From assembly GCA_964244955.1 (NCBI GenBank), contig CAXTKQ010000001.1:28265-92264 (forward strand): 64,000 bases of DNA. The letters are read 5' to 3'. Origin of the DNA: an uncultured Sphingobacteriaceae bacterium (GTDB taxonomy: Bacteria; Bacteroidota; Bacteroidia; Sphingobacteriales; Sphingobacteriaceae). Position numbers and translations under genes: made by a program. Below are positions 1-56,364 of the stretch, piece by piece. Position 1 is the first letter of the stretch. Every line of letters begins with the position of its first letter. A model generated the notes under the pieces. The model saw only the letters and a program-made list of their open reading frames with translations, searched no databases and was not told the origin of the DNA.

Positions 1-22
1 TTTTAGGCGGTAAAAGAAGCAT
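1..22. repeat. Right-hand arm of the abundant repeat family, truncated by the window edge (..TTTTAGGCGGTAAAAGAAGCAT)
   Basis: Exact TAAAAGAAGCAT at 11..22, preceded by the usual AT tract and GC-rich linker. Confidence 0.7.
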
Positions 23-1277: not shown

Positions 1278-1322
1278 TTGTTTATGTGCATTTGCAATAA
1301 TACTTCTTTTAGCACTGTTTTT

Positions 1323-5460: not shown

Positions 5461-6411
5461 TTATTTTGATGCTGTTTTTACCGGCAAAAAAACCTCGGCC
5501 ATCATGCAGCGCGCGCTGCCGCCACCGTTAGTTTCGATGGTGTTTAAAGGCGAATGGACGAGTTTGCAATAGCGTTCCAAAGTTTCGGTTTGAGCTTTTG
5601 TTAAGGCTAAAAAAGCCGTTTCCGACATTGCCAATAAGCTTTCCCCGGATTTTGATTGAAGCTGGAGCATGTTTCCTGCAAAAGCATTCATTTGCGCAAA
5701 AGAGATTTCGACCACTGCTTTTCCCGATTGCTGCAATGCTTCTTTTACCGATGTTTTTTCAGTGCCGTTTACAATCGAATCTAAACAAATTACCGCAAAC
5801 CGGTCGCCAATACACATCAAAACATTGGTATGATAAATGGCTTTTCCGGCTTCATCCTCGGCATGGAACAAAACGGATTGGTAACCCGAAATTTTGCAAA
5901 ACTCATTAATTACCTCAACATCCGTTCTTGGCGAGATGCAAGCATAAGCGAGTTTGTTTTCGCGGTCTAAAACCAAGCTTCCGGTCCCTTCTAAAAACTG
6001 GTTCTGCGTTTCAAAATAACTCAAATCATAAACCTGTTTTGCTTCAAATGCTTCTTTTATGACATAAAAAACCTTGCGTTCCAGCCTTCGGTTTTCAGCT
6101 TGCATCGGGTATAAAAAAACAGAACCGTCTTCATGAAAAGAAACCCAGTTATTCGGGAAGATGGAATCCGGCGTGTGCGGTTCGGGCGTATCGTTTAAAA
6201 CGGTAACATCAACTCCGTTTTGGCGCAAAATATCCACAAAAGCATCAAACTCCAGCAAGGCTTTTTGCTGCACTTCGGTTTGCCTGCCTGGTTTTTGGAA
6301 AGCGTTGCTTGCGGCCGTTTGCTCGTTAAAAGCAAAATTTACGGGCCTGACCATCAGGATATGCGAAGTTAAATGTTCAATTGTTGGTTTCAATGCGGTG
6401 TTTTTTATCAA
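5461..6411 (-). CDS. ctlX: Amidinotransferase-fold guanidino-modifying enzyme, CtlX-like (citrulline utilisation hydrolase-like)
   Basis: 316 aa with N-terminal ILMVRPVNFAFNEQTAASNAFQ and C-terminal GGGSARCMMAEVF (catalytic Cys motif). Confidence 0.6.
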   Translation of the reverse strand: MIKNTALKPTIEHLTSHILMVRPVNFAFNEQTAASNAFQKPGRQTEVQQKALLEFDAFVDILRQNGVDVTVLNDTPEPHTPDSIFPNNWVSFHEDGSVFLYPMQAENRRLERKVFYVIKEAFEAKQVYDLSYFETQNQFLEGTGSLVLDRENKLAYACISPRTDVEVINEFCKISGYQSVLFHAEDEAGKAIYHTNVLMCIGDRFAVICLDSIVNGTEKTSVKEALQQSGKAVVEISFAQMNAFAGNMLQLQSKSGESLLAMSETAFLALTKAQTETLERYCKLVHSPLNTIETNGGGSARCMMAEVFLPVKTASK

Positions 6412-6878: not shown

Positions 6879-7997
6879 CGGCATGCTCATGCAATGAAAA
6901 CCGCCGCGCGCACGTGAAAGTTCGGCGGAAGGAAAAGTAATAATGGTGTTGCTGATGTTTTCGGTTTTCAATTCGTTTCGTTCCAGTTGTTTGAGCAAAT
7001 CTGCTGCTTTGATCACGCTAAAACCTTGTTCTTTAAATGCGGACAGGGTTTTGTCATTGCGGTCGTAAGCCAAAACCACGCCTTCTTTTAACGCCAATAA
7101 ATTACAGCCGTCTGTCCACTGCTCGCGCGAATCGTAAGGAAAAACATTGTTGCCCGAATAGATGAACTGCGTTTTTTCTGTAAAGCCCAATTCGTTTTCG
7201 CTGATTTCGGAAAGCAAGTCCTCCAAGCGTTCAAACCTTTTTGGCCTGTCAATTTTCCCGTTTTCAAACTGGATAATTTCCGGCTGGTCTGGTTTTTTGG
7301 TTTCTGTGAGATAGTTGACTGGCTGAAGTTCCTGATCGTTTTGCTGCGGGTTAAAAAGCGAAGAAAGCAAAACCCACAAGCCTTTTTTTACCTGGGTAAA
7401 AACAGTATCGAGGTGCATAAAATCGCGTTTGTGCGGAATTTTGATCACCGTAACTTTTTGCACCACGTTTTTCTCGAACAACAATTTAATCACGTTGCTT
7501 GCTGCCAATGGCGTTGTGCGTTCGCCGCAGCCAATTAGTAAATGGTTGTTGCTCACCATCATCACGTCGCCGCCTTCCAAGGTGTTTTGCTGGTCAATTT
7601 CTCCTTCGGGGATTAAAAAATGCTCTTCGGTTTGCGGCACTTCGATGATGTTTTGCCGGTAAGCTTCAAAAAAAGGATGGTTAAAAAAGATGTATTTGCA
7701 CAACAAAGCCTCGCGCGAACGCGCTTTACGGGCCGGTTTGTTCAGTAAAATATGGTTGTTGATCGTTGTTCCCAAATCGCGCGTAAAAATTAAATTAGGC
7801 AAAGGCGCGAAAAAAATCTTTCCGTCGGGCAACGTTCCCGAAATAAAAAGCGTGGCCAAATCCGCCGAAGGCAAATCCATCAAAAGTTGCTGTTGCTGAT
7901 AATTGCAGTTTTCTGTGGCACAAACCGCGGCGATTAATTGCTGCCGAACGGTTTGTCCATTTAAAACTTCTGCCAGCAAAACTTCCAGTTCAATCAC
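6858..7997 (-). CDS. Arginine deiminase family protein, C-terminal three quarters (catalytic part)
   Basis: PLPNLIFTRD, LEGGDVMMV..LLIGCGERTT, FMHLDTVF, REQWTDGCN, and GGFHCMSMP (catalytic Cys) align with ArcA-type deiminases. The ORF starts at a GTG that overlaps the stop of the preceding fragment. Confidence 0.75.
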   Translation of the reverse strand: MIELEVLLAEVLNGQTVRQQLIAAVCATENCNYQQQQLLMDLPSADLATLFISGTLPDGKIFFAPLPNLIFTRDLGTTINNHILLNKPARKARSREALLCKYIFFNHPFFEAYRQNIIEVPQTEEHFLIPEGEIDQQNTLEGGDVMMVSNNHLLIGCGERTTPLAASNVIKLLFEKNVVQKVTVIKIPHKRDFMHLDTVFTQVKKGLWVLLSSLFNPQQNDQELQPVNYLTETKKPDQPEIIQFENGKIDRPKRFERLEDLLSEISENELGFTEKTQFIYSGNNVFPYDSREQWTDGCNLLALKEGVVLAYDRNDKTLSAFKEQGFSVIKAADLLKQLERNELKTENISNTIITFPSAELSRARGGFHCMSMPLFRSEL

Positions 7998-8371
7998 TTT
8001 TTCGGAAGCATAAAAGCCAGGCTGGTTAGGTTGTAAAATTGGCGCATACTGTTTTTAGCATCAATTTCTTGGATTTTGCCCTGGATCAAAGAAGGGTCTA
8101 AAAAGTAAAGTAAAACCTTGACATACAAATCGTACTCTTTTTTGCGGATCGTTTCGAGGTGGACAATATCTTCAAAAAGCCAATCCTGTGCTTTGGAAGG
8201 AATCACTTTTCCTAACCCTTTATCCGGGCTATGGATCAAAATCCGGCGCAAATCGCCAATTTCGGAACTGACTTGTAGATGAAAAGTATCTTTTTGAAGC
8301 ATATAAGTTTTAAGTGGAAAGGCAAATCTACCAGAATATTTAGAAACGGTTTCGATGCTGTTTTTATCCAC
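7994..8371 (-). CDS. Arginine deiminase family protein, N-terminal fragment in a different frame
   Basis: VSSEIGDLRRILIHSPD ... DWLFEDIVHLE matches the ArcA N-terminus (HSE.G.L..V...P ... LLFDD). It is out of frame with 6858..7997. Confidence 0.65.
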   Translation of the reverse strand: MDKNSIETVSKYSGRFAFPLKTYMLQKDTFHLQVSSEIGDLRRILIHSPDKGLGKVIPSKAQDWLFEDIVHLETIRKKEYDLYVKVLLYFLDPSLIQGKIQEIDAKNSMRQFYNLTSLAFMLPKK

Positions 8372-8419: not shown

Positions 8420-10189
8420 ATGGATTTTATTTTAGAAGCTGCCGTTCGCGCCGTAAAAACTTTGTTTGCTGTTGGTATCTCTGCGGAAAGCCTGAGCCTG
8501 CAGCAAACACGCAAAGAATTTGAAGGCGACGTAACTTTAGTTGTTTTTCCGCTGACAAAATTTTCCAAAAAACCACCGGAACAAACCGGAACTGCCATTG
8601 GCGAGTTTTTGGTAAATGAAGTGGAAGCAATTGAATCTTTCAACGTCATCAAAGGCTTCTTAAATTTATCCCTTAAAAACAGCTATTGGCCGGCTGTTTT
8701 TTACCAGCAGATCAACCAGCCCGGTTTCGGTTCTTTTTCCGCAAACGGAAAAAAAGTGATGGTGGAATATTCTTCGCCCAATACCAACAAACCCTTGCAT
8801 TTGGGCCATGTGCGTAATAATTTGCTGGGCTATTCCGTCGCCGAGATTTTAAAAGCGAATGGTTATGAAGTGATCAAAGCGAATTTGGTGAACGATCGCG
8901 GCATTCATATCTGTAAATCTATGCTGGCCTGGCAGAAGTTTGGCAACGGCGAAACGCCTGAAAGTTCGGGTTTGAAAGGCGATCATTTGGTGGGGAAATA
9001 TTATGTGATCTTCGATAAAGAATACAAAAAGCAGATCGAGGAACTGAAAAATCAGGGCGAAGCCGAAGACGAGGCCAAAAAAAATGCGCCATTAATCCGC
9101 GAAGCGCAGGAAATGCTGCAAAAATGGGAGCAGGGCGATGCGCAAGTGATTGCTTTGTGGAAGGAAATGAACGGCTGGGTTTATGCCGGTTTTGAGGAAA
9201 CGTATAAAAAGCTGGGTGTAGATTTTGACCAGTATTATTACGAATCGAATACGTATTTATTAGGGAAATCCATTATTGATGAAGGCTTGGAAAAAGGTGT
9301 TTTCTTTAAAAAGCCGGACGGTTCAGTCTGGATTGATTTAACGGCCGATGGTTTGGATGAAAAATTGGTTTTGCGTGCCGATGGAACTTCGGTTTACATG
9401 ACGCAGGATTTGGGAACGGCGCAGCTAAAATACGATGAATACCAAACCGACAAAGCCATTAATGTGGTGGGCAACGAGCAGGATTACCATTTTAAAGTGC
9501 TGTACCTGATCTTAAAAAAGTTAGGCAGAAGCTGGGCGCAAGGTTTGTACCATTTATCGTACGGTATGGTAGATTTGCCTTCCGGAAAAATGAAATCGCG
9601 TGAAGGAACGGTGGTGGATGCTGATGATTTGATTGCAGAAATGGAAGCCACCGCCAAAGCGCAAACCGATATTTTAGGAAAAGCAGCCTATTTCCCGGAA
9701 GTAGAAAAGCAGGATTTGTACCATACCATTGGCATGGGCGCGTTAAAATATTTCCTGTTGAAGGTGGAGCCTAAAAAACGCTTGCTGTTTGACCCGAACG
9801 AGTCTGTAGATTTTCAGGGAAACACCGGTCCGTTTATTCAATATACTTATGCCCGTATCCGATCGGTTTTGACCAAAGGCGGGTTTAATGCCGATACTGT
9901 TTTTATGCCTATAAAAACAGTATCGCCGGTAGAAAAAGATTTGATCGTGCAATTGGAGCAATATCCCACGGTTTTAACGGAAGCTGCCCAAGCTTACAGT
10001 CCCGCTGTCATCGCCAATTATGTTTACGAACTGGCCAAGCTATACAATAAATTTTACCATGAAGAAAGTATTTTGAAAGCGGAGGAAGAAGCGGTAAAGC
10101 AGTTTCGGTTGCAATTATCAGCAGTTTCGGCTGAAATCATTCAAAAAGCAATGCAATTATTAGGGATAAAAGTTCCTGAAAGGATGTAA
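8420..10189 (+). CDS. argS: Arginine--tRNA ligase
   Basis: 589 aa with the class I HIGH-type motif PLHLGHVRNN, the KMSKS-type motif GKMKSREG, and a C-terminal DALR-like anticodon-binding region. Confidence 0.95.
   Translation: MDFILEAAVRAVKTLFAVGISAESLSLQQTRKEFEGDVTLVVFPLTKFSKKPPEQTGTAIGEFLVNEVEAIESFNVIKGFLNLSLKNSYWPAVFYQQINQPGFGSFSANGKKVMVEYSSPNTNKPLHLGHVRNNLLGYSVAEILKANGYEVIKANLVNDRGIHICKSMLAWQKFGNGETPESSGLKGDHLVGKYYVIFDKEYKKQIEELKNQGEAEDEAKKNAPLIREAQEMLQKWEQGDAQVIALWKEMNGWVYAGFEETYKKLGVDFDQYYYESNTYLLGKSIIDEGLEKGVFFKKPDGSVWIDLTADGLDEKLVLRADGTSVYMTQDLGTAQLKYDEYQTDKAINVVGNEQDYHFKVLYLILKKLGRSWAQGLYHLSYGMVDLPSGKMKSREGTVVDADDLIAEMEATAKAQTDILGKAAYFPEVEKQDLYHTIGMGALKYFLLKVEPKKRLLFDPNESVDFQGNTGPFIQYTYARIRSVLTKGGFNADTVFMPIKTVSPVEKDLIVQLEQYPTVLTEAAQAYSPAVIANYVYELAKLYNKFYHEESILKAEEEAVKQFRLQLSAVSAEIIQKAMQLLGIKVPERM
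9893..9924. repeat. Perfect 14-bp-stem palindrome GATACTGTTTTTAT-gcct-ATAAAAACAGTATC inside argS
   Basis: Built from both orientations of the second over-represented 12-mer (9894..9905 and 9912..9923). Confidence 0.85.
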
Positions 10190-16053: not shown

Positions 16054-16082
16054 CGCTAAATTTATATGGATAAAAGAAGCAT
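16054..16082. repeat. Solo arm of the abundant repeat family
   Basis: ..CTAAATTTATATGGATAAAAGAAGCAT, with the exact 12-mer at 16071..16082. Confidence 0.75.
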
Positions 16083-19589: not shown

Positions 19590-20693
19590 TTAGCTGTTTA
19601 AAGAGCCGTAAATAAGGATGGCATTTGATGTGATTACCCTTTCGCCGGGTGCAAGGCCACTTTTGATATATGCCGTGTTTCCGTTCGTGCTGATGATATC
19701 TACCGGCCTGATCTGTACATCCTTTTCGCCTTTTATTATAACAACGTAATACTGGCTGTGGTCAAAAACAAGGGCATGGCTCGAAACAGAGATAGCCTGT
19801 TTGTTTTCATTATTGTTTACACTAACTGTGGTAAACATTTGCGGCTTTAACAGGTAGCCCGGGTTATTTAAAACAACCCTCATTTTCATCACTTTCGTGG
19901 TTGGGTCAATCACGTTCATGATCTCATTGATATTGCCCTTAAAAACCTTGTCAGGATAAGAAATGGTAGTTACATCAACGGGATCGCCCTGGTGCACTTT
20001 GCCAATATTTTCTTCATAAACGTTGGCTTGCACCCACACATTTTTAAGATCGGAAATGGTAAAAAGGCCAGTACTGTTGTCCGTGCGGATGGCCATCCCA
20101 TTGGTTACGTTTTTTTGAACAACAAAACCTTCTATCGGTGCTTTAATTACATACTCTCCGTTTGGGTTGTTGCCGTTGATGCTCAGTATCTTTTGCGCCG
20201 CAGTCCTGGCCGCTACCGCTTGCTGGTAGGCAGATTCTGCATTGGTTATATCCACTTGCGATGCCAGGCCGCTTTTGTAAAGGTCTTTTTGCTGCGATAA
20301 TTGCCTGGCCGTTAAACGCACGGAAGCTTGGGCATCAACCAGTGCCGAGTTATAGTTGGCCACTTCGGCACTTTTAATAATCCCCAAAGTTTGGCCTGCA
20401 TGTACATAATCCCCCGGCATAACATTAACGTTCTGTACGTTCCCGCTAACCAATGGAAAAACATTGACTACATTATTGGTATTAAAATCTACAATGCCGT
20501 TAAATTTTAAAACGTCAACAATGTTTGAAGTTTTTACGGTATCTATCGTCAGTGTTTTTAATAAAGAATCAGGGATTACGTAAGGAACACGTACATCGCT
20601 GGTTGTATCTTTTGGTTTGCACGAAAACAGGTTTAACAATACACAGCAAACAGTAACTGTTTGGATGCTGTTTTTAAGGGTACTTTTTTTCAT
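19590..20693 (-). CDS. Efflux RND periplasmic adaptor (membrane fusion protein, CzcB-like, copy 1)
   Basis: 367 aa with a lipoprotein-like N-terminus, a coiled-coil hairpin and beta-barrel pattern. It lies between the OMP and RND genes. Confidence 0.88.
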   Translation of the reverse strand: MKKSTLKNSIQTVTVCCVLLNLFSCKPKDTTSDVRVPYVIPDSLLKTLTIDTVKTSNIVDVLKFNGIVDFNTNNVVNVFPLVSGNVQNVNVMPGDYVHAGQTLGIIKSAEVANYNSALVDAQASVRLTARQLSQQKDLYKSGLASQVDITNAESAYQQAVAARTAAQKILSINGNNPNGEYVIKAPIEGFVVQKNVTNGMAIRTDNSTGLFTISDLKNVWVQANVYEENIGKVHQGDPVDVTTISYPDKVFKGNINEIMNVIDPTTKVMKMRVVLNNPGYLLKPQMFTTVSVNNNENKQAISVSSHALVFDHSQYYVVIIKGEKDVQIRPVDIISTNGNTAYIKSGLAPGERVITSNAILIYGSLNS

Positions 20694-22133: not shown

Positions 22134-22231
22134 ATGCTTCTTTTATGCCCATAAATTTGGTGGTTGAAATTATAACCGGTACAAAAACCTCAAAAAAAAC
22201 CACACTAATTTTTATGCGGTAAAAGAAGCAT
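22134..22231. repeat. Inverted doublet of the abundant repeat (REPIN/MITE-like), 98 bp
   Basis: Left arm ATGCTTCTTTTATGCCCATAAATTTGGTG and right arm CACACTAATTTTTATGCGGTAAAAGAAGCAT, in inverted orientation. Confidence 0.85.
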
Positions 22232-22276
22232 GGGAAATAAACGGGACAAAACTTAAATAGGCTTAACAAACGCAGG

Positions 22277-22305
22277 CACCAATTTTATGGGCATAAAAGA
22301 AGCAT
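22277..22305. repeat. Solo arm of the abundant repeat
   Basis: CACCAATTTTATGGGCATAAAAGAAGCAT. Confidence 0.8.
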
Positions 22306-24460: not shown

Positions 24461-24537
24461 ATGCTTCTTTTACTGCCTTAAATTTAGGGTTGGTTTTTGT
24501 GTGATGACCACAAAATTAATAGGCATAAAAGAAGCAT
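24461..24537. repeat. Inverted doublet of the abundant repeat, 77 bp
   Basis: ATGCTTCTTTTACTGCCTTAAATTTAGGGT ... ACCACAAAATTAATAGGCATAAAAGAAGCAT. A further 1-mismatch arm (GTGCTTCTTTTATGCC..) lies at 24606..24634. Confidence 0.85.
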
Positions 24538-24635
24538 GTTTGTTGCCAACGCAAAGGGTTGTTTTAGGTTGATTAGAAACCCAAACATTTATTGCCCACC
24601 GGCTGGTGCTTCTTTTATGCCATTAAAAATGTTAC

Positions 24636-27600
24636 TTACTTGCTCACCGCACCAATTTTTTGCAGCAGCTTCCGGTTTTCCCGCTTGTGCATAAAACTAT
24701 ACACCATTTTATAAATAATTGGTAAAAGAAGCAAGGTCAGGATGGTGGAAGTAACCAAACCGCCAATCACCACAATAGCCAAAGGTTTTTGCGTTTCGGA
24801 GCCGATGCCGGTAGAAATTGCAGCCGGCATTAAACCAATGGCGGCCATCAAAGCGGTCATCACCACAGGGCGTACACGGGACAGAACGCCGGTTAAAATA
24901 GCTTCATCTATTTGCACGCCTTCCAATATATTTTTGCGGAAAACCGAGATCAGGATTACACCATTTTGGATACAAACACCAAACAGCGCGATAAAACCGA
25001 TACCTGCCGAAATACTGAAATTGGTATTGGTGATGTGCAAAGCCAAAATACCGCCGATCAAAGCAAAAGGCACGTTCAGGATTACCAATACGGCATCTTT
25101 TACATTGCCAAAAGTGGTAAACAGGATCAGAAAGATCACCAATAAACAGATTGGGACAACATTGGCCAAAGTATGCGATGCGCGGATCTGGTTTTCAAAC
25201 TCGCCGTTCCAGGTGGTGGTGTAGCCTTGGTCAAATTTTACCGCCTGGTTTACTTTCTGCTGTGCTTCGGCAATGGTGCTTCCCAAATCGCGGCCACGTA
25301 CCGAGAATTTTACGGCGATGTAACGCATGTTGTTGTCGCGGTAAATAAAGGCCGGGCCAGTCAACTTGGTAATTTGTGCAATTTCTTTGATAGCAATTTT
25401 AGAACCGTTTAAAGTTGGCACCATCAGGTTTTCAATCTTTTCTTCGGTATCGCGGTAATCTTTTTGGTAGCGGATCCGAATGTCGAACTTCCTTTCGCCC
25501 TGGTACAAAGTGGTTGCCGCTTTTCCGCCGATTGCCATCTCGATCACCGAGTTGGCATCGGCCGTAGAAATGCCATACAAAGCCATCTTGCTTTGGTCCA
25601 GTTCGATCCTAAATTCGGGCTGGCCCAAGTTTCTGAGTATTCCCAAATCTTCCACACCCTGAACTTTACTTAAAACGCGCATTACTTCATCGGCTTTTCC
25701 ATCCAAAACTTTAAAATCGGTGCCGAAAATTTTTACGGCCATTGAAGCCGGAACACCTGCCACCGCTTCGGCCACATTATCAATAATCGGCTGCGAATAG
25801 TTAAAGATAATTCCAGGAAATTGGCTCAGCTTTTTGTCCATCTGCGCAATCAGTTCTTCCTGGGTGATGTTTCGTTTCCACTCGTCTTTTGGCAAAAGAT
25901 CAACCTGGATTTGCACGTTAAAAAAACCTTTCGGGTCGGTTCCGTCGTTCGTCCGGCCAACTTGCGACATGGTTTGTTTAACCTCTGGGAACGAACCCAA
26001 AATACTGCGCATCTTATTGGTGGTGCTGACGGAACTTTCCAGCGACGTACTCATTGGCAATTGTGCCGTAACCCACAATGCGCCTTCGTTTAACTGCGGC
26101 AAAAACTCCGTCCCTAATAATTTGGCCGAAGCAAAAGTAAGCGCCATAAAAACTAAAGCCACAATCAAGCTTAGCTTCTGGTTTTTGTAGGTGAAATTGA
26201 ACATCTTGTGGATGCCGTTTTCAAAGAACAATACAATCGGGTTGTGTTTTTCGCGAACGTTTTTTCGGAGTAAAATGCTGGATAACGCCGGAACTAAAGT
26301 CAACGTAAAAATCAAAGCGCCCAGCAAGGCAAAGCTCAACGTGTAGGCCAAAGGCGAGAACATTTTGCCTTCCACTTTTTGAAAAGCGAAAATTGGCATC
26401 AAACAGGTGAGGATGATGAGTTTGGAGAAGAAGATCGCTTTCCCCATTTCTGTACCCACATTTTTGAATAAGCCCAACTTGGCCAGCTTGTTAAATTTTT
26501 CCATGCCCACCTCTTTGGCCTTGTGGTCCAGCGCGACGTAAATCCCCTCGACCATTACCACGGCCCCGTCTATGATGATCCCAAAATCAACCGCACCCAT
26601 AGAAAGTAAATTGGCGCTCATGCCTTTCAGCCTCAAACAAATAAAGGCGAACAATAAAGCTAAAGGAATAATGATGGCTACCGTTAGTGTGGTGCGCCAA
26701 TCGGCCATAAACAAAAACACAATCACGGTTACCAGCACAATCCCTTCGATCAAGTTATGGATAACGGTGTGCGTGGCAAAATCCATCAAAGTGGTACGAT
26801 CATAAAAAACATCAATTTTGGTGTCTTTCGGCAGGATATGGGCGTTCAAATCCTTTACTTTGTCCTTAATCCGTACCAAAACATCGGATGGGTTTTCGCC
26901 TTTGCGCATCACCACAATACCTTCAATGGCGTCGTTGTCTTTATCGCGCCCAACCTGGCCCAAGCGTGGCAACCCACTTTCGTGGATGTCGGCCACGTTT
27001 CGCGCTAAAATCGGTACGTTGTTTACGTTTTTGATGATGATATTTTGGATCTCGCTGATGTTGTTGATCACTCCAATCCCCCTAACCACATAAGCCTGGT
27101 TGTTTTTTTCGATCACATCGCCGCCCACGTTAATATTGCTGCGGTTAATGGCATTGTAAACATCTAAGGAAGTTAAGCCGTATTTTTGAAGCAGGGCAGG
27201 GTTTACGCTTACCTCAAAATCTTTTTCTTCCCCACCAAAACTGTTGACATCGGCAACACCGGGAATGGCCTTAAACTGGCGGTCTAAAACCCAATCCTGT
27301 ATCTCGGTCAGGTCATGTATACTTCTGATCTTGCTTCTCAGTGTATAACGGAAAATTTCACCGGTTGGGCCGTACGGCGGTTCTACTTCCGGTTTTACGC
27401 CATCAGGCAAATCGGCATTCAGCAACCGGCTTAAAACCTGCTGGCGCGCGAAGGCATCGTCCACATCGTCATCAAAAATAATGCGGACGTAAGACAAGCC
27501 GAAAGAAGAGGTGGTGCGCAGGTTGGATTTTTTCTGGACCGAATTCAGCACCGTTTCCATCGGGATGGTGATCATCCTTTCCACCTCTTCCGCACTACGG

Positions 27601-27878: not shown

Positions 27879-27971
27879 ATGCTTCTTTTAGCACCTAAAT
27901 TTTGAAATCCCGGTGCTTTGTTCTACCTGTGCCACTAATAGAAACCAATTTTATAGGCATAAAAGAAGCAT
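27879..27971. repeat. Inverted doublet of the abundant repeat, 93 bp, inside the MFP2-RND2 intergenic gap
   Basis: ATGCTTCTTTTAGCACCTAAATTTTG ... AACCAATTTTATAGGCATAAAAGAAGCAT. Confidence 0.85.
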
Positions 27972-30525: not shown

Positions 30526-30554
30526 ATGCTTCTTTTAGCAGCATAATTTTAGCG
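30526..30554. repeat. Solo arm of the abundant repeat
   Basis: ATGCTTCTTTTAGCAGCATAATTTTAGCG. Confidence 0.75.
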
Positions 30555-30737
30555 GCATAAATTAAAGGTCGCAATTTTGTGTATTATTACGGCGAAAATA
30601 GCTATTATTCTAGTTTTCGTTTGCAACTTTATTGTTATTAACCTGTTAAAAACATCGTTAAATTGCATGTAAACAACAAACTTTAAGCTGCAATTTATTT
30701 AAATACCTGTATTGTATATTTAGTAACCTAAAACACC

Positions 30738-32840
30738 ATGGCCAAAAAAGCAGTTTCCGCAACAGGTGAAGCAGTAAACAAAAATACTTCGCCCAAAGAA
30801 AAAAAAGTGCCGGCCACTAAAAAAGATGTGGTAAAAGAAGCATCAACACGCACTAAAAAAATTAACGGTACGGAAGCCGCTGTTTTGGAAACCAGCCCTG
30901 CCGAAACAGAAACCAGCCAAGCCATCAGCTTAAACCCAGTTGAAGTTTACAGCCGCTTTACCGATTTTGATATTAGTTTGTTTAAAGGCGGCAAGCATTA
31001 CCGTTTGTACGAACTGTTTGGTTCGCACACGACGGAACATAAAGGTGTAACCGGAACATATTTTGCCGTTTGGGCACCCAATGCAGAAAAAGTTGCCGTC
31101 ATGGGCGATTTTAACGGTTGGGACAAACACAGCCATCCGCTTTTTGTGCGTTGGGACGGTTCCGGTATTTGGGAAGGTTTTATCCCGTACGTGGGCGATG
31201 GCGCAATTTATAAATATGCCATCCGCTCTTTTTATGGCGAAGAACTGGAAAAAGGCGATCCGTTTGCTTTGCGCTGGGAAGAACCGCCGCGTACAGCTTC
31301 CATCGTAACGCATACTTATTTTGAATGGAAAGATTCGGATTGGATGAAAACGCGCCATCAGCATAATGCGTTAACCAGCCCGTACTCCGTTTACGAGGTG
31401 CATTTTGGTTCCTGGGCGCGCAACCCAAAAAAACCTGAACAGTTTTTAGGCTATCGCGAAATGGCCGACGTGATGGTGAAATACGTAAAAGACATGGGTT
31501 TTACCCACGTGGAGTTTATGCCGCTGGCCGAGCATCCGTATTATCCAAGCTGGGGCTATCAAATTACTGGTTATTTTGCGGCCAGTACGCGTTACGGTTC
31601 CCCGCAGGACTTAATGTTTTTAGTTGATCAATTTCATGAAGCCGGGATTGGTGTGATAATGGATTGGGTGCCTTCTCATTTTCCGGGCGATGCACACGGC
31701 CTTTTCCGTTTCGATGGCACCAGTTTGTACGAGCATGAAGATCCGCGTAAAGGCTTCCATCCCGATTGGAAATCCTACATTTTTAATTACGGCAGAAACG
31801 AGGTTAAATCTTTTCTGATTAGCAACGCCTTGTTTTGGCTGGACCGTTACCACATTGACGGTTTGCGGGTTGATGCCGTAGCTTCCATGTTGTATTTAGA
31901 TTATTCGCGCGAGGCAGGCGGGTGGGAGCCAAACATTTACGGAGGCAACGAAAACCTGGAAGCCATCCAGTTTTTGCGCGAATTTAACGAAGCGGTTTAC
32001 GGCAATTATGCCGATGTGCAAACCATTGCCGAAGAATCTACTTCGTTTCCTGGCGTAAGCAAACCAACTTATTTGGGCGGTTTGGGTTTTGGCATGAAAT
32101 GGATGATGGGCTGGATGCACGATACCATCAAGTATTTTCAGGAAGACCCGATCAACCGGAAATATCATCACCAGCAAATCACTTTCAGCTTGCTGTATGT
32201 TTTTACCGAAAATTTTATGTTGCCGCTTTCGCATGATGAAATTGTTTACGGCAAGCATTCTATGATCAATAAAATGCCGGGAGACGAATGGCAGAAGTTT
32301 GCCAATTTGCGCGCATTGTACAGCTACATGTTCACGCATCCGGGAGCAAAACTGCTGTTTATGGGCGATGAGTTTGCGCAATCAGCAGAATGGGCTTTTG
32401 GCAAATCGTTGGACTGGCATTTGCTGCAATACCGGCCGCACCAAGGCATGCAAGATTTGGTGAAAGCGTTGAACCAACTGTACAAAACCGAACCGGCTTT
32501 GTACGAAAAAGCTTTTACGGGCGAAGGTTTTGAGTGGATTGATGACGGCAACGCTACGGATTCTGTGCTGCTTTACATCCGAAAAGGGAACGACCCGAAA
32601 GATGATTTGGTGGTGGCCTTAAATTTAACGCCGGTTGTGCGCACCGGTTTTCGTATCGGCGTTCCTGCTGCCGGAACGTGGAAAGAAATTTTTAATTCCG
32701 ATGATTTGGATTTTTGGGGAAGCGGGATTGTCAACCCAAAACCTTTAAAATCGGAAGACGTTGCATGGAATTATCGAAACCAATCGGTGCAATTAACCTT
32801 GCCGCCTTTAAGCGTTTCGGTATTAAAAAAGGTTGGATAA
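30738..32840 (+). CDS. glgB: 1,4-alpha-glucan branching enzyme
   Basis: GH13 motifs WGYQITGYFA, HIDGLRVDAVASMLY, IAEESTSFPGV and LPLSHDEIV. The first ~60 codons are a K/E/T-rich extension, so the true start may lie further downstream. Confidence 0.93.
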   Translation: MAKKAVSATGEAVNKNTSPKEKKVPATKKDVVKEASTRTKKINGTEAAVLETSPAETETSQAISLNPVEVYSRFTDFDISLFKGGKHYRLYELFGSHTTEHKGVTGTYFAVWAPNAEKVAVMGDFNGWDKHSHPLFVRWDGSGIWEGFIPYVGDGAIYKYAIRSFYGEELEKGDPFALRWEEPPRTASIVTHTYFEWKDSDWMKTRHQHNALTSPYSVYEVHFGSWARNPKKPEQFLGYREMADVMVKYVKDMGFTHVEFMPLAEHPYYPSWGYQITGYFAASTRYGSPQDLMFLVDQFHEAGIGVIMDWVPSHFPGDAHGLFRFDGTSLYEHEDPRKGFHPDWKSYIFNYGRNEVKSFLISNALFWLDRYHIDGLRVDAVASMLYLDYSREAGGWEPNIYGGNENLEAIQFLREFNEAVYGNYADVQTIAEESTSFPGVSKPTYLGGLGFGMKWMMGWMHDTIKYFQEDPINRKYHHQQITFSLLYVFTENFMLPLSHDEIVYGKHSMINKMPGDEWQKFANLRALYSYMFTHPGAKLLFMGDEFAQSAEWAFGKSLDWHLLQYRPHQGMQDLVKALNQLYKTEPALYEKAFTGEGFEWIDDGNATDSVLLYIRKGNDPKDDLVVALNLTPVVRTGFRIGVPAAGTWKEIFNSDDLDFWGSGIVNPKPLKSEDVAWNYRNQSVQLTLPPLSVSVLKKVG

Positions 32841-32895
32841 AAACAGTATCAATTTAAATTTACATAAGCCGGTTTAGCAAGCCGGCTTTTTGCTG

Positions 32896-32999
32896 ATGCT
32901 TCTTTTAGCACATAAAAATTATAGTTTATTGTTGATGGTTCATCGTTGATAGTTAATGGTTCATTGTTGACACCAAATTTATAGTGCTAAAAGAAGCAT
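32896..32999. repeat. Inverted doublet of the abundant repeat, 104 bp, with a second repeat family in its spacer
   Basis: ATGCTTCTTTTAGCACATAAAAATTATAG ... CACCAAATTTATAGTGCTAAAAGAAGCAT. Confidence 0.85.
32931..32970. repeat. Second repeat family (GTTGATGGTTCATCGTTGATAGTTAATGGTTCA-type)
   Basis: About 30 nt are near-identical to the reverse complement of 49225..49274. Confidence 0.65.
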
Positions 33000-34082: not shown

Positions 34083-34111
34083 ATGCTTCTTTTATCGGGT
34101 AAATTTTATAC
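34083..34111. repeat. Solo arm of the abundant repeat between convergent genes
   Basis: ATGCTTCTTTTATCGGGTAAATTTTATAC, which overlaps the stop of the response-regulator gene. Confidence 0.75.
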
Positions 34112-34759
34112 TTCCATAATCCCTTTTTTAATGGCATAAATCACCAAACCCACAATGTTTTTAGACCCTGTTTTTTCAAACAATTTCGTGCGGTAACCTT
34201 CTACCGTTCGCACGCTTAAAAAAAGTTTGTCGGCAATTTCGGTGTTTTGTTTTTCCTGGCAAATCAATTTTAAAACCTCGATTTCGCGTTCGTTCAGTTC
34301 GGTTTCTTCTTTGCTTTTTCCGCGCAGCGAACTTTTTTCCATAAACTGTTTTACCAACGAAATGGAAAGGTGTTCATTAAAATAATAGCCTTTTTTATGC
34401 ACGGTAAAAACAGCATCAATAATTTCCTGCGGCTCGGCGTTTTTTAATAAATAGCCGCAGGCCCCGGCTTTCATCATGTCCAGAATGTATTTGTCTTCGT
34501 TGAACATAGACAAAGCCAGCACTTTCACATGGCTAAAATTTTGCTGGATATGCGCCGTCGCCTGCATCCCGTCCATTTCGGGCATTTTAATGTCCATTAA
34601 AACCACATCCGGGTTTTTAAAGGCCAATTGTTTAACCAGTTCAATCCCGTTTCCGGCCTCAAACAAAATGTTCAGATCGGCACAATCTTCCAGCGTGGCT
34701 TTCAAACCTTCCCTGAAAATTTTATGGTCATCGGCGATGGCTAAGTTTATGACAGGCAT
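34106..34759 (-). CDS. NarL/FixJ (LuxR)-family response regulator
   Basis: REC domain (IADDH...DVVLMDIKMPEMDG) plus a LuxR HTH (LNEREIEVLKLICQEKQNTEIADKLFLSVRTVEGYRTKLF). Confidence 0.9.
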   Translation of the reverse strand: MPVINLAIADDHKIFREGLKATLEDCADLNILFEAGNGIELVKQLAFKNPDVVLMDIKMPEMDGMQATAHIQQNFSHVKVLALSMFNEDKYILDMMKAGACGYLLKNAEPQEIIDAVFTVHKKGYYFNEHLSISLVKQFMEKSSLRGKSKEETELNEREIEVLKLICQEKQNTEIADKLFLSVRTVEGYRTKLFEKTGSKNIVGLVIYAIKKGIMEV

Positions 34760-34801: not shown

Positions 34802-35590
34802 TCAAGTAACTAAATTAATTTTTATTTCTGCCGACATGCCTTCGCCCGGCCTTGATTTAATTTCGATTTGCCCTTTGATAAAATCCGTTCGGCTTTGCAT
34901 GTTTTTTAAGCCCGAGCCGTTTTTGTAAGCAGCCACATCAAAGCCCAAACCATTGTCCTGGTAAGTTAAAACCAACGTTTCGTGGCCCGACACCAAATTT
35001 ATGCCGATAAAAGAAGCATGTGCATGTTTGATGGAATTGCCAAAAAGTTCTTGCACAATGCGGTAAAGCGTAACTTCGATTTCCGGCGTAAACCGGTTTT
35101 GTAAAGTTTCGTGCTTAAAACTTACTTCGATGCCCGTGTTTTGCTGTATCTTTTTGCAGAAGTCGGACAAGGCTTCCACCAAACCAAAATCGGTCAGCAG
35201 CGGCGGCCTTACATTTTGGATAATACTGCGGATTTCCTGGATGCACTCGTCAATCAAATTCCGCGTACTGCTTAACAGCGGAATTGCTTGTTCATCGGCT
35301 GCGCATGTTTTATTCAAACGGTGCAAATTGAGCTTTACGGCCGATAAAACCTGGCCCACGCTGTCGTGCAGGTCTTCGGCCAGCCTTTTGCGCTCGCTTT
35401 CCTGCGTTTCTAAAATGGCGCGCAGCAAATCGTTTTGTTTTTCGATCTGTAAATTCCTTTTTTCTTCCTGGTTCCTGATCATTTTCCGCTGGTAAATAAT
35501 CACAAACAGGAACAAAAAAACAATCAATAAAACTACGACAACGGTGCCAACTATTAATACGAACGTGAGACTGTTTTCTGAGTTTTGCAA
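34802..35590 (-). CDS. Sensor histidine kinase, HisKA_3 type, single N-terminal TM
   Basis: H-box RLAEDLHDSVGQVLSA, N-box ELFGNSIKHAHAS, DNGLGFD and GSGLKNM. The annotated start is a TTG that overlaps the upstream ORF. Confidence 0.85.
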   Translation of the reverse strand: MQNSENSLTFVLIVGTVVVVLLIVFLFLFVIIYQRKMIRNQEEKRNLQIEKQNDLLRAILETQESERKRLAEDLHDSVGQVLSAVKLNLHRLNKTCAADEQAIPLLSSTRNLIDECIQEIRSIIQNVRPPLLTDFGLVEALSDFCKKIQQNTGIEVSFKHETLQNRFTPEIEVTLYRIVQELFGNSIKHAHASFIGINLVSGHETLVLTYQDNGLGFDVAAYKNGSGLKNMQSRTDFIKGQIEIKSRPGEGMSAEIKINLVT

Positions 35591-36647: not shown

Positions 36648-36907
36648 GGTTTTTGGTTTTTGTTTAGGATAAATTTAATACAAAAGCTTTGATAATTTAT
36701 ATTGATGCCTTAATTAAAAAGCAAAAATTATTTGTGCAAAAATTGGTAAATGCCTAAAAATGAGTTGTTAAAAGAAGTATTTTTTTTAACCTGATGAAAA
36801 GATTCCGTAGCATCACGATGAAGATTACGTAATTTTACGCATCCAAAAAAAGAGGTCAAAAGCGTGTTTATGCTTGAAAAAGGGATTTTTCAAAAACCGT
36901 GTAAAAT

Positions 36908-36951: not shown

Positions 36952-36980
36952 ATGCTTCTTTTAGCACCTAAAAATTGGTG
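36952..36980. repeat. Solo arm of the abundant repeat
   Basis: ATGCTTCTTTTAGCACCTAAAAATTGGTG, 5 nt from the gap stop codon. Confidence 0.8.
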
Positions 36981-36984: not shown

Positions 36985-38830
<1,846 letters not shown>

Positions 38831-39925: not shown

Positions 39926-40621
39926 TTGGAAACCTCACTGCCAAAATTTGATTCGGTATTCTCGGTGGATTGTGTCATCTTCGGGTTTCAGGCAAATGAA
40001 CTAAAAATTTTGCTCATCGAACGAAACCAGGAACCTTATAAGGGCCGGAACGCGCTGCCCGGCTACATTGTAAAAAATGATGAAAGCATTGACGATGCCG
40101 CCGAACGTATTTTGTATGAATTGACCGGCCTGCGCGGCCTGCACATGGAGCAGTTCCATACTTTTGGTGATGTGGACAGGCACCCGCAAGGGCGTGTCAT
40201 TACGGTTGCTTATTATGCCCTGATCCGGATTGACGGGCACAACGAGGTAAAACCGGTTACCAATTTTGCCCGTAGCGCGTTTTGGCACCCGGTAAACAAG
40301 TTGGACAAACTGCCTTACGACCACAGTAAAATATTTGAAACTGGTTTCCAAAAACTGCGCCGCCGGTTAAGTTACCAGCCCATTGCTTTTGAGCTGCTTC
40401 CCGAAAAATTTACCTTAACCCAATTGCAAACGCTTTACGAAGCAATCCTGAACAAGAAGCTGGACAAGCGCAACTTCCGCAAAAAAATGCTGAGCTACGG
40501 TTTTTTGAAAGAACTGGACGAAAAGCAAAAAGGCGTTTCCTATCGCGCCGCAACCTTGTACCGTTTTGACCGGCGGAAATACAACAAGATTTTTCAGAAC
40601 GAATTGAACATTAATGGCTGA
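39926..40621 (+). CDS. Nudix-domain transcriptional regulator (NrtR-like), degenerate Nudix box plus C-terminal winged helix
   Basis: The Nudix box reads G..x..E-x7-RILYELTGL, so the catalytic REUxEE is lost. A ~90-aa basic wHTH-like domain forms the C-terminus. TTG start. Confidence 0.7.
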   Translation: METSLPKFDSVFSVDCVIFGFQANELKILLIERNQEPYKGRNALPGYIVKNDESIDDAAERILYELTGLRGLHMEQFHTFGDVDRHPQGRVITVAYYALIRIDGHNEVKPVTNFARSAFWHPVNKLDKLPYDHSKIFETGFQKLRRRLSYQPIAFELLPEKFTLTQLQTLYEAILNKKLDKRNFRKKMLSYGFLKELDEKQKGVSYRAATLYRFDRRKYNKIFQNELNING

Positions 40622-40664
40622 TGCTTCTTTTATCGGCATAAATTTAGTGTGGTAAAAGAAGCAT
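40621..40664. repeat. Compact inverted doublet of the abundant repeat, 44 bp
   Basis: ATGCTTCTTTTATCGGCATAAATTTAGTGTGGTAAAAGAAGCAT, whose first base is the last base of the stop codon TGA. Confidence 0.85.
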
Positions 40665-41732: not shown

Positions 41733-42446
41733 TCAGGATTTTGGCGATGCTTCTTTTAGCCTATAAAAATCAAGCACCAACTGGTCCATGTTGCCGTAGC
41801 GGTATTTTTTGTTTTTTATTTTTTCTACGATTTCGGGCTGGCTGGCCATAATTTCGCTCATCACTTGTACAAAATTGTCTTTTCGCAGTTCCGTCAAACT
41901 GTTTGGGTCATCGCCATAGTAATAAACGGGTTTGCTTTTTCCGCCGCCACCGCCCAGGTTAATGCCCAAACCGCCGCCAATGCCGCTGCCGAAACTGCCG
42001 CCGCCAATGCCCAAACTTGGCCTGATTCCGGGCGACATGCCGCCACCGCCGCCACCGGTCGTGGCATACAATTTCATCGGTTCATCCACCAAAACTTTTA
42101 CAAAATCAATGCTTCGGCCGGTCCAAACACCTGTCCGGGGTGCATGTGCCACCGTAAAGCTGTCCCTTCCGGCTACAAAAGAGCGCACCATCGAAGCCGT
42201 TAACTTCTCTTTTTCTTCGCCTTTGTCTTTTCGGAACAAAATAAAACCTTCGCTGTCTTGCGGGCTTCTGCCGGATGGGCTGACAACAATTTGTCCCGGC
42301 ACTTTTTTGCCGTTGGCATCATAAAAATAACCATCGTCCCATTGGTTCAAACCCAATTGTGCCGAAGCTGAAAATGCAGTCAGCAAAAACAAGCCTGTTA
42401 AAAAAGGTAAGCGCATTGTGTGTAATTTAATTTCAGGAATAACCAT
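41733..42446 (-). CDS. Secreted protein with an internal Gly-rich tract
   Basis: The signal peptide begins at the internal ATG at 42416 (MRLPFLTGLFLLTAFSASAQ). It contains a GGGGGGMSPG..GIGGGSFGSGIGGGLGINLGGGGG tract, and its last codons (LKEASPKS*) run into a repeat arm at 41747..41775. Confidence 0.55.
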   Translation of the reverse strand: MVIPEIKLHTMRLPFLTGLFLLTAFSASAQLGLNQWDDGYFYDANGKKVPGQIVVSPSGRSPQDSEGFILFRKDKGEEKEKLTASMVRSFVAGRDSFTVAHAPRTGVWTGRSIDFVKVLVDEPMKLYATTGGGGGGMSPGIRPSLGIGGGSFGSGIGGGLGINLGGGGGKSKPVYYYGDDPNSLTELRKDNFVQVMSEIMASQPEIVEKIKNKKYRYGNMDQLVLDFYRLKEASPKS

Positions 42447-44500: not shown

Positions 44501-44583
44501 GAAAGATACTGTTTTTACCGACATAATTTTGATATTCAAATTTTCTGTTCTTGCAATTGTCCAATGGTGATTAAAGTAAATTT

Positions 44584-56349: not shown

Positions 56350-56364
56350 ATGCCTATAATTTCA

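What the first reader, a model, noticed from the sequence alone, without database searches (positions are those of the whole stretch)
22134..22305. Repeat arms form inverted doublets of 44-104 bp (REPIN/MITE-like) at seven intergenic sites
Doublets lie at 22134..22231, 24461..24537, 27879..27971, 32896..32999, 40621..40664, 50388..50483 and 55345..55400. Each consists of a ~29-nt arm ATGCTTCTTTTA-N4-6-(A/C)TAAAWTTGGTG, a non-conserved spacer of 0-45 nt, and the same arm inverted, so the termini always read ATGCTTC...GAAGCAT. Within each arm a mini-hairpin TTTTA-loop-TAAAA is preserved by co-varying bases (TTTAT-gccc-ATAAA, TTTTAG-cac-CTAAAA, TTTTA-ccggtt-TAAAA). Solo arms also occur (22277, 30526, 34083, 36952, 41747, 16054, 60617). 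I see no target-site duplication, and no transposase, RAYT or integrase in the window. This is the organisation of REP doublets (REPINs), but with unrelated sequence.
Basis: seen in the sequence. Interest (0 to 1): 0.7.

Follow-up and report, generated by a model that had tools for sequence, protein, structure and literature searches.

The report
Uptake-sequence-like 12-base word in Mucilaginibacter
The reported inverted repeats are real, but they are paired copies of a 12-base DNA word that one Mucilaginibacter clade carries about once per kilobase, inside genes as well as between them, which resembles the DNA uptake sequences of Neisseria and Haemophilus more than a small mobile element.

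Summary

The REPIN/MITE reading fails its own tests:
- Single arms do not fold, and the mini-hairpin shows no covariation.
- Doublet spacers are unrelated to one another.
- Divergent pairs (12) are about as common as convergent ones (15).
- I found no clean empty site in relatives, and no transposase or RAYT in the window.
- Nine exact copies lie wholly inside real genes and a tenth overlaps a stop codon.

In two enzymes the coding copies arose in place, without indels, by rewriting poorly conserved residues (for example outgroup VEPAD became VKEAS).

The word belongs to a family, ATRCTKYTTTTA, with 54 copies on both strands in nearly equal numbers. It is restricted to the M. arboris clade and absent from 39 outgroup loci. 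Word proportions shift between species. Low-GC islands carry no copy. Core positions are 323/324 identical to a sister species whose third codon positions are only 77-79% identical.

These are the genomic hallmarks of DNA uptake sequences, which are not established in Bacteroidota. Uptake bias itself is untested. Confidence is about 0.45. The rivals are a REP/BIME-like host element and another genome-wide protein-binding signal.

The parts
22134..22231 (.). Convergent doublet between the histidine-kinase stop and the OEP start. Arms 22134-22162 (+) and 22203-22231 (-).
   Evidence: (I8). Both cores identical in L001 and L002.
22277..22305 (-). Solo arm 41 nt after the HK stop, in tandem with the arm at 22231.
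   Evidence: (I2: 97% complementary to 22134-22162).
24461..24537 (.). Convergent doublet between the AcrB-type gene stop and the response-regulator start.
   Evidence: (I3).
24606..24734 (.). Degenerate convergent pair (GTGCTTCTTTTA and TTGCTTCTTTTA). With 24461-24537 it forms an alternating + - + - array.
   Evidence: L002 has the exact word at 24606.
27879..27971 (.). Convergent doublet between the MFP and AcrB genes of an RND operon.
   Evidence: L002 carries an extra tandem arm here.
30526..30563 (+). Solo arm with a 14-nt internal duplication, in a divergent promoter region.
32838..32849 (-). Word B (ATACTGTTTTTA). Its TAA is the stop codon of the GlgB-like gene.
32896..32999 (.). Convergent doublet after a GC hairpin and T-run that follow the GlgB-like gene.
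   Evidence: (I6).
34083..34111 (+). Solo arm. It is a direct repeat of the 32896 core and bounds the GH18 segment that is absent from L002 and M. arboris.
40621..40664 (.). Tight convergent doublet (12-bp cores, 20-nt loop). The first base is the last base of a TGA stop codon.
   Evidence: z -7.1. Conserved with the same 20-nt gap in M. arboris L047 7018/7050.
50388..50483 (.). Convergent doublet after the topoisomerase IB gene.
50521..50544 (-). Word B arm next to the 50388-50483 doublet.
   Evidence: (I12).
55345..55400 (.). Convergent doublet with variant cores (ATGCTTTTTTTA and ATACTGTTTTTA), 4 nt after the SusD stop.
1260..1311 (.). Divergent pair of ATACTTCTTTTA. The left copy encodes ILLL at the start of the TauE gene.
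   Evidence: (I5).
56305..56350 (.). Divergent pair flanking a GC-rich hairpin, which looks like a bidirectional terminator.
   Evidence: (I14). Conserved in L047 and L048.
58693..58731 (.). Divergent pair starting immediately after the CdaA stop codon.
   Evidence: (I13).
57775..57855 (-). Two tandem arms in a divergent intergenic region.
11..22 (-). Solo copy 32 nt after the DUF1634 gene stop.
16054..16082 (-). Solo arm between convergent genes.
36952..36980 (+). Solo arm 21 nt after the GAPDH stop. Conserved in M. arboris (L047 3347).
36769..36780 (-). Intergenic ATACTTCTTTTA.
44506..44517 (+). Word B, 5 nt after the aldo-keto reductase stop.
60617..60645 (-). Solo arm with the word B core.
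61113..61168 (-). ATGCTTTTTTTA and word B in tandem after the M1 peptidase stop.
5736..5747 (+). CDS copy in ctlX, antisense, encoding VKEAL.
6048..6059 (+). CDS copy in ctlX, antisense, encoding IKEAF.
5469..5480 (+). ATGCTGTTTTTA encoding the clade-specific C-terminal extension VKTAS of CtlX.
30832..30843 (-). CDS copy in the GlgB-like gene (VKEAS).
   Evidence: Identical in L002 although the flanks differ.
34991..35019 (-). Full 29-nt arm inside the HATPase domain of a histidine kinase (ASFI).
41747..41758 (+). CDS copy 14 nt before a stop codon (LKEAS).
43059..43070 (-). CDS copy in threonine aldolase (AKRSI).
43218..43229 (-). ATGCTTTTTTTA in threonine aldolase (DKKSI). The same site holds the major word in L048 and a GT-type word in M. 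arboris.
43442..43453 (-). CDS copy in threonine aldolase (VKEAS). Identical in three species while the flanking synonymous sites vary.
52209..52220 (+). CDS copy in SusC (ASFI).
53991..54002 (+). CDS copy in the SusD signal peptide (MLLL).
2225..2236 (+). ATACTTCTTTTA in CDS (VKEVF).
8355..8366 (+). ATGCTGTTTTTA in CDS.
20665..20676 (+). ATGCTGTTTTTA in the N-terminus of the MFP gene (LKNSI). Conserved in L001-L003.
34405..34416 (-). ATGCTGTTTTTA in the LuxR-type response regulator CDS.
48103..48114 (-). ATGCTGTTTTTA overlapping a stop codon. The orthologous site in M. arboris has the TC word.
49138..49149 (+). ATGCTGTTTTTA in CDS (DKNSI).
7397..7408 (-). Word B in CDS (DTVF).
8046..8057 (+). 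Word B in CDS (AKNSM).
9892..9925 (.). Convergent pair of word B forming a perfect 15-bp inverted repeat inside the ArgRS CDS.
   Evidence: (I23).
38699..38710 (-). Word B in CDS.
44268..44279 (-). Word B in CDS (VKTVS).

Best explanation
The repeat is a clade-specific, non-palindromic 12-bp word, ATRCTKYTTTTA. The main form is ATGCTTCTTTTA and the second form is ATACTGTTTTTA. A weaker extension follows the core: Y-S-N-S, then an A/T tract about one helical turn after the core's T-tract.

It behaves as a signal read on double-stranded DNA across the whole genome, not as a transposable unit. The most likely mechanism is that of DNA uptake sequences (DUS/USS). A DNA-binding part of a natural-transformation machinery prefers fragments that carry the word. 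Repeated uptake and homologous replacement then drive the word to high density wherever it is tolerated. In genes that means poorly conserved residues. Between genes it often means inverted pairs just after stop codons, which can also act as hairpins or terminators.

Shown here: over-representation, strand symmetry, presence in CDS and intergenic DNA, origin in place by substitution, extreme conservation, clade restriction with shifting word proportions, absence from low-GC islands, and a preference for inverted pairing.

Inferred, not shown: competence of these bacteria, biased uptake, and the receptor.
For: 1. Over-representation and symmetry:
- 32 exact copies against 0.05 expected, 16 on each strand.
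- The four-word family totals 54 copies in 64 kb, each word expected ~0.02 times.
- Perfect copies outnumber all single-mismatch variants together, 32 to 14.

2. Coding copies:
- 9 of the 32 exact copies lie wholly in Pfam-supported genes and a tenth overlaps a stop codon. They use five of the six reading frames and both orientations. The 31% in or on ORFs compares with 34.5% of N. meningitidis DUS in ORFs (PMC2817400).

3. Origin in place:
- In CtlX and threonine aldolase the word-encoded peptides (VKEAL, IKEAF, AKRSI, DKKSI, VKEAS) align without gaps to different residues in outgroup Mucilaginibacter (VITSL, LEDEF, KQRGL, NKATI, VEPAD). The sites are poorly conserved.
- At one site three species carry three different words of the family.

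4. Constraint:
- Core positions are 323/324 identical between the window and L002 plus L048, where third codon positions are 77-79% and other intergenic DNA about 80% identical.
- Against M. arboris, cores are 92% identical where third positions are 60%.

5. Clade restriction and dialects:
- Present in L001-L007, L047 and L048. Zero exact copies of the main word in L008-L046 (39 loci). All four words were counted in a subset of 11 of those loci and none was found.
- GT-type words are about as common as TC-type words in L006 and outnumber them in L007.

6. Islands:
- No copy in about 10 kb of low-GC islands (10-16 kb, and 44-48 kb with a Tsp45I-type R-M system), although the word is AT-rich. 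About 7 copies would be expected.

7. Pairing:
- Neighbouring copies are inverted in 27 of 36 cases (p=0.002), many within 0-40 nt of stop codons. This matches the dyad pairs of DUS/USS at gene ends.

8. Precedent in the phylum:
- Riemerella columbina is naturally competent and prefers its own DNA, with no validated uptake sequence (PMC7965970).
Against: - There is no experimental or genomic evidence here that this clade is competent. Competence genes and any receptor could not be searched genome-wide.
- Enrichment between genes is about 24-fold. That is higher than my rough back-calculation for DUS (about 7-fold), which rests on the 34.5% ORF share and an assumed coding fraction of about 80%.
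- Positions 13-16 fall into discrete subfamilies (TGCC, GCAC, TCGG, CCRC). A few arms share longer similarity, up to 47 nt. Both point to some copying by descent or gene conversion, which a pure point-mutation drive does not predict.
- Two co-abundant words differing at three correlated positions within one genome are unusual for known uptake sequences.
- Extreme conservation fits any strongly selected protein-binding site equally well.
Confidence: 0.45

Rival explanations
1. A REP/BIME-like host-adapted repeat. Arms are spread or maintained between genes by a RAYT-like or other recombinase, or by gene conversion. They serve as hairpins, mRNA stabilisers, terminators or protein-binding sites. 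On this view the coding copies are a by-product.
For: - Strong intergenic enrichment and a position just after stop codons.
- Inverted pairs and alternating arrays such as 24461-24734 and L003 4608-4984 resemble BIMEs.
- Doublets fold far better than shuffles (z -2.8 to -7.1).
- Positions 13-16 form subfamilies, and there is a 47-nt similarity between two loci.
- L002 has one extra arm-length insertion next to an existing arm.
Against: - Arms are not palindromes and do not fold, and there is no covariation.
- Spacers are unrelated between doublets.
- Convergent and divergent pairs are about equally common.
- 10 of the 32 exact copies, and about 40% of the family, lie in or on the edge of CDS. 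They were created by substitution and changed amino acids.
- No clean empty sites among 27 aligned sites.
- No RAYT or transposase in the window or among the called genes of L047 and L048.
Confidence: 0.2
2. A genome-wide recognition word for something other than uptake. Candidates are an abundant nucleoid or chromosome-organising protein, a self-recognition or recombination signal (Chi-like), or a word favoured by a sequence-specific repair or methylation system, as proposed for cyanobacterial HIP1.
For: - The same facts that show DNA-level constraint in both CDS and intergenic DNA.
- Clade restriction.
- In-phase T and A tracts that suggest bent DNA and protein binding.
Against: - There is no strand bias: 16/16 for the main word and 25/29 for the family. 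That argues against Chi- or KOPS-type signals.
- From my own knowledge, known Chi and KOPS sites are 5-8 nt and known nucleoid-protein sites are degenerate.
- The only DNA methyltransferase gene in the window belongs to a Tsp45I-type R-M pair in a low-GC island, and nothing links it to the word.
- Absence from recently acquired islands fits slow accumulation by drive better than a structural need.
Confidence: 0.25
3. A purely RNA-level element, such as an intrinsic terminator or 3'-UTR motif, in which the U-rich word acts as the terminator tail.
For: - Divergent pairs flank GC hairpins (56305-56350, conserved in two other species).
- At 32896 the word follows a GC hairpin and a T-run.
- The 40 nt upstream of intergenic copies fold slightly better than controls (p=0.047).
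Against: - Terminator-like sites are not enriched (33 vs 27 expected), and the T-rich tail coincides with a family word at only 2 of the 33 listed sites (20647-20663 + and 23448-23432 -).
- Copies occur in both orientations relative to transcription and inside CDS.
- One doublet lies inside an operon (27879-27971).
- No RNA data could be found.
Confidence: 0.05

Closest known systems
DNA uptake sequences: Neisseriaceae DUS (GCCGTCTGAA and its dialects) and Pasteurellaceae USS (AAGTGCGGT plus AT-rich flanks)
   Same: - A short non-palindromic word at about 0.5-0.9 copies per kb on both strands.
- Present in CDS and intergenic DNA, but under-represented in CDS (31% of exact copies in or on ORFs vs 34.5% for N. 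meningitidis).
- Coding copies lie at poorly conserved residues and in several reading frames.
- Dyad pairs at gene ends.
- Absent from recently acquired DNA.
- Clade-specific, with dialect-like variants.
- An extended consensus with a phased A/T tract, as in USS.
   Different: - The phylum is Bacteroidota.
- Competence, biased uptake and a receptor have not been demonstrated.
- Intergenic enrichment is stronger.
- Two words co-exist in one genome with three correlated differences.
- Positions 13-16 form discrete subfamilies.
- Inverted pairs are often 50-80 nt apart with unrelated spacers.
REP / REPIN / BIME elements with RAYT (Enterobacteria, Pseudomonas)
   Same: - Short intergenic repeats, often as inverted doublets or alternating arrays.
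- Long-lived and vertically inherited.
- Capable of forming hairpins.
   Different: - The single unit is not palindromic.
- Doublets are not copied as units.
- Many copies lie inside genes and arose by substitution.
- No RAYT was seen.
- No conserved GTAG or CGTC tag.
HIP1 (GCGATCGC) of cyanobacteria
   Same: - A highly iterated word in both coding and non-coding DNA.
- Conserved at orthologous sites.
- Function still debated.
   Different: - HIP1 is an 8-bp palindrome tied to methyltransferases.
- The present word is 12 bp and asymmetric, with an extended flank.

Membership tests
DNA uptake sequence (DUS/USS) | A short (9-12 bp) non-palindromic word, hugely over-represented, in similar numbers on both strands. 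| tested here: met
   32 copies vs 0.05 expected, 16 on each strand. The family totals 54 copies in 64 kb. M. arboris loci carry about 0.8 copies per kb. Genome-wide totals are extrapolated.
DNA uptake sequence (DUS/USS) | Occurs inside ORFs as well as between genes, in several reading frames, at poorly conserved residues, and arises in place. | tested here: met
   Compared with PMC2817400.
DNA uptake sequence (DUS/USS) | Intergenic copies often form dyad-symmetric pairs near gene ends. | tested here: met
   27 of 36 neighbouring copies are inverted, and many lie 0-40 nt from stop codons. Terminator function itself was not shown.
DNA uptake sequence (DUS/USS) | Absent from recently acquired DNA. 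Lineage-specific, with dialects. | tested here: met
   No copy in about 10 kb of low-GC islands, where about 7 would be expected. Zero exact copies of the main word in 39 outgroup loci, and none of the four words in the 11 of those checked. Word proportions shift in L006 and L007. The sample is small.
DNA uptake sequence (DUS/USS) | Competent cells preferentially take up DNA carrying the word. A cognate receptor and competence machinery are present. | not testable with these tools
   No experiment was possible. No competence gene lies in the window.
REPIN / REP-RAYT | The REP unit is an imperfect palindrome that forms a hairpin. | tested here: not met
   Single arms fold with z 0.0 to -1.3. 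The proposed stem shows no covariation.
REPIN / REP-RAYT | Strictly extragenic. | tested here: not met
   9 of 32 exact copies lie wholly in CDS and one more overlaps a stop codon. About 40% of the family lies in or on CDS.
REPIN / REP-RAYT | The doublet replicates as a unit, so spacers are related between copies. | tested here: not met
   An all-against-all comparison of intergenic DNA finds only arm-length matches.
REPIN / REP-RAYT | A single-copy RAYT gene flanked by the repeats. | tested here: inconclusive
   None in the 64-kb window or among the called genes of L047 and L048. Whole genomes could not be scanned.
MITE | Terminal inverted repeats around a conserved interior, a target-site duplication, insertion polymorphism and a related autonomous IS. 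| tested here: not met
   Interiors are unrelated. Flanks show no duplication. 27 of 27 aligned sites are occupied in the sister species. No transposase was found.

The most novel reading that the evidence does not exclude
The M. arboris clade of Mucilaginibacter (Sphingobacteriaceae) has evolved a true DNA uptake sequence system. It would be the first outside Proteobacteria. It uses a 12-bp word with two co-existing dialects, which implies an unknown sequence-specific DNA receptor in a phylum that has no known ComP-type pilin receptor.
Probability: 0.35. Interest if true: 0.8.

Novelty: new variant of a known kind. Interest (0 to 1): 0.65.

Why it matters
Sequence-specific DNA uptake is firmly established only in Neisseriaceae and Pasteurellaceae (my own knowledge). 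Whether it exists elsewhere is an open question.

This clade shows the full genomic signature of an uptake sequence in Bacteroidota. Competence and a preference for self DNA have been reported in that phylum for Riemerella columbina, but no signal has been found (PMC7965970).

One member, M. arboris HMF7410, appears as a named strain with its own genome assembly, so the idea can probably be tested directly.

Even if uptake is not the mechanism, the case stands on its own. A 12-bp word is conserved more strictly than second codon positions, has rewritten protein sequences, and bounds at least one gene-content difference between species. That is a strong example of DNA-level constraint overriding coding constraint.

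Tried and rejected
- Rfam scan of the window: no family matched.
- Full-text search for the word and its complement: only chance primer hits.
- Exact-protein look-ups of the response regulator: not on record.
- Mini-hairpin covariation: rejected.
- Pairing of positions 14-17 with the GGTG tail: below the shuffles.
- A stem formed by the 5' flank and positions 13-17 around the core: only a weak signal (16-25 of 500 shuffles reach it), probably inflated by orthologous copies.
- The word as the U-tract of intrinsic terminators: terminator-like sites are not enriched, and only a few clear cases exist.
- Arms as Bacteroidetes promoters (the tail contains TAAATTTG, a TAnnTTTG-like motif): rejected, because most arms point into convergent doublets or lie after stop codons.
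- Laying metagenome contigs on the region to find empty sites: the contigs were too fragmented, and the apparent joints came from arms at other loci. This only showed that many other loci carry arms ending exactly at base 1 of the word.
- The apparent deletion in L001 at 24473-24775 is a run of N, so it is not evidence.
- Scan of viral contigs for the arm: only single chance matches.
- Repeated 12-mers in outgroup loci turned out to be tRNA arrays, local tandem repeats or palindromes, not dispersed words.
- RNA-seq runs: none available.

Full report
**What is there**

The window comes from a Mucilaginibacter (Sphingobacteriaceae, Bacteroidota). It carries SusC/SusD pairs and RND efflux operons. 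The closest public loci are Mucilaginibacter MAGs and M. arboris.

ATGCTTCTTTTA occurs 32 times exactly, 16 on each strand, against 0.05 expected from dinucleotide-preserving shuffles.

A logo of the copies shows a fixed 12-bp core followed by a much weaker extension. Positions 13-16 read Y-S-N-S, an A/T tract follows at about 19-25, and G is preferred at 27 and 29.

Nine exact copies lie wholly inside Pfam-supported genes and a tenth overlaps a stop codon. Three related words are also far over-represented: ATACTGTTTTTA x12, ATGCTGTTTTTA x6 and ATACTTCTTTTA x4, each expected about 0.02 times. They have the same tails and the same behaviour in coding sequence. The family ATRCTKYTTTTA therefore has 54 copies in 64 kb.

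**Tests of the REPIN/MITE reading**

- Single arms fold no better than shuffles (z 0.0 to -1.3). Only the trivial arm-to-arm pairing of doublets is stable.
- The proposed TTTTA-loop-TAAAA hairpin shows no covariation. It is 73.1% paired against 72.2% in shuffles, and the extension pair is 24/47 against 22.8 expected. In 9 of 80 copies a T-run replaces the A-run.
- An all-against-all comparison of intergenic DNA finds matches of arm length only (33 nt or less), apart from one 47-nt pair. Spacers are unrelated, so doublets are not copies of one another.
- Among neighbours within 150 nt, in the window plus five related loci, there are 15 convergent, 12 divergent and 9 tandem pairs. Inversion is favoured (27/36, p=0.002), but no fixed terminus exists.
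- No transposase, RAYT or integrase is present in the window or among the called genes of L047 and L048.
- In the sister species (L002 and L048), all 27 fully aligned sites are occupied and 26 are perfectly conserved. The only structural differences are one extra tandem arm in L002, a 14-nt internal duplication, and a 1.19-kb segment described under structural variation below.

**Coding copies arose in place**

In the citrulline hydrolase CtlX (5461-6411), the clade has VKEAL and IKEAF. Outgroup Mucilaginibacter have VITSL, VIASL or LIEMF, and LEDEF or LKKQF, with no gap at the word. A clade-specific C-terminal VKTAS is encoded by ATGCTGTTTTTA.

In threonine aldolase (42523-43596), AKRSI, DKKSI and VKEAS replace KQRGL, NKATI and VEPAD.

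At the DNA level, GTA AAA GAA GCA TC is identical in three species while the flanking synonymous sites vary. At site 43218 the three species carry TAAAAAAAGCAT, TAAAAGAAGCAT and TAAAAACAGTAT, so family words have switched at one orthologous position and changed the amino acid (K, R or N).

The copies use five of the six reading frames and both orientations.

**Constraint and distribution**

Core positions are 323/324 identical between the window and L002 plus L048. In the same comparison, third codon positions are 77-79% identical, other intergenic DNA is about 80%, and second codon positions are 97-98%. Against M. arboris, cores are 92% identical where third positions are 60%. Arm tails are only mildly constrained (87.7% vs 80.4%).

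The family is present in L001-L007, L047 and L048. L008-L046 (39 loci) hold no exact copy of the main word, and none of the four words appears in the 11 of those loci that I checked for all four. An unbiased k-mer count finds no comparable dispersed word in the outgroup loci. GT-type words are about as common as TC-type words in L006 and outnumber them in L007.

Low-GC segments carry no copy, although the word is 75% A+T and about 7 copies would be expected. These segments are 10-16 kb and 44-48 kb, the second holding a Tsp45I-type restriction-modification pair.

Perfect copies outnumber all single-mismatch variants together, 32 to 14.

**Interpretation**

The following are the published genomic properties of DNA uptake sequences (PMC2817400):

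- over-representation with strand symmetry
- presence in ORFs at tolerant positions (31% here vs 34.5% for N. meningitidis)
- dyad pairs at gene ends
- absence from acquired DNA
- lineage-specific dialects

The in-phase T and A tracts recall the extended USS consensus (my own knowledge).

Natural competence with a preference for self DNA exists in Bacteroidota (Riemerella columbina). No specific signal was found there, only A-rich low-complexity k-mers (PMC7965970).

My best explanation, at confidence about 0.45, is therefore an uptake-sequence-like word spread by biased uptake plus homologous replacement, with inverted pairs doubling as hairpins. Competence, uptake bias and a receptor are inferred, not shown.

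**What does not fit neatly**

- Positions 13-16 fall into discrete subfamilies (TGCC, GCAC, TCGG, CCRC).
- Four arms share an outer-flank motif at fixed spacing, and two loci share 47 nt. This suggests some copying or gene conversion.
- Intergenic enrichment is about 24-fold.
- Two words with three correlated differences co-exist in one genome (odds ratio about 16, computed from the counts).

These points keep two rivals alive: a REP/BIME-like host element (0.2) and another genome-wide protein-binding, repair or recombination word (0.25). A purely RNA-level terminator role is unlikely (0.05). Terminator-like sites are not enriched, and copies occur in both orientations and inside genes. A few divergent pairs do flank GC hairpins and look like bidirectional terminators.

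**Structural variation at the words**

The GH18 gene 33053-34057, together with one arm, is absent from both L002 and M. arboris. It is bounded by direct copies of the 12-mer at 32896 and 34083.

The SusC/D pair 50789-55340 lies between arm sites and is replaced by a DUF421 gene in L047 and L048.

Words therefore mark at least one boundary of gene-content change. This fits recombination at or near the words but does not prove it.

**Verdict**

The REPIN/MITE interpretation is only superficially right. The feature is best described as an uptake-sequence-like word family, which is new for this phylum, and its function remains to be tested.

Noticed in passing
window 45518-48004: Low-GC (0.32) island with an N6/N4 DNA methyltransferase and a Tsp45I-family restriction enzyme. 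The same slot holds HNH plus a C5 methylase in L048, and ParE-toxin genes in M. arboris L047. It is a variable defence-island hotspot with no copy of the word.
   Followed up: partly
window 32896-34094: A 1.19-kb segment carrying a GH18 chitinase-like gene and one inverted arm is absent from L002 and M. arboris. It is bounded by direct copies of ATGCTTCTTTTA.
   Followed up: partly
window 50789-55340: A SusC/SusD pair lies between arm sites. Relatives L047 and L048 have a DUF421 gene there instead. The pair still carries two in-CDS copies of the word and has normal GC content.
   Followed up: partly
window 9892-9925: A perfect 15-bp inverted repeat (CGATACTGTTTTTAT / ATAAAAACAGTATCG), made of two word-B copies, lies inside the arginyl-tRNA synthetase coding sequence.
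   Followed up: no
window 6858-8371: Arginine deiminase appears split into two overlapping ORFs in different frames (7994-8371 is the N-terminus, 6858-7997 the rest). This is either a frameshift or pseudogene, or a sequencing error.
   Followed up: no
window 22246, 22320, 27853, 50498: Four arms share an extra motif, TTAAATTTTGT, exactly 14 nt 5' of the core. Regions 22220-22266 and 27844-27890 are 87% identical over 47 nt. This looks like a longer subfamily of the repeat.
   Followed up: partly
arms in L003-L007, e.g. L004 7953 and L005 9108: In some copies the 4-5 nt before the core are complementary to positions 13-17 (GGTGA..TCACC, GCTGA..TCAGC), which would place the core in a loop. The covariation signal is weak (16-25 of 500 shuffles reach it) and may be inflated by orthologous copies.
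   Followed up: partly
L006, L007 (JBPBPL010000013.1, JBPBQN010000253.1): These records are titled 'Janthinobacterium lividum' MAGs. They carry Mucilaginibacter-like genes (71-76% identity to the window's histidine kinase) and the same word, so the bins are probably mislabelled or mixed.
   Followed up: no
window 49313-50353: A bacterial type IB topoisomerase gene, conserved next to an arm in L047 and L048.
   Followed up: no
runs X1-X15: The region is held by lichen metagenomes and related samples. Contig depth spikes about 7-14-fold over the arms, showing many further arm-bearing loci in those genomes.
   Followed up: partly
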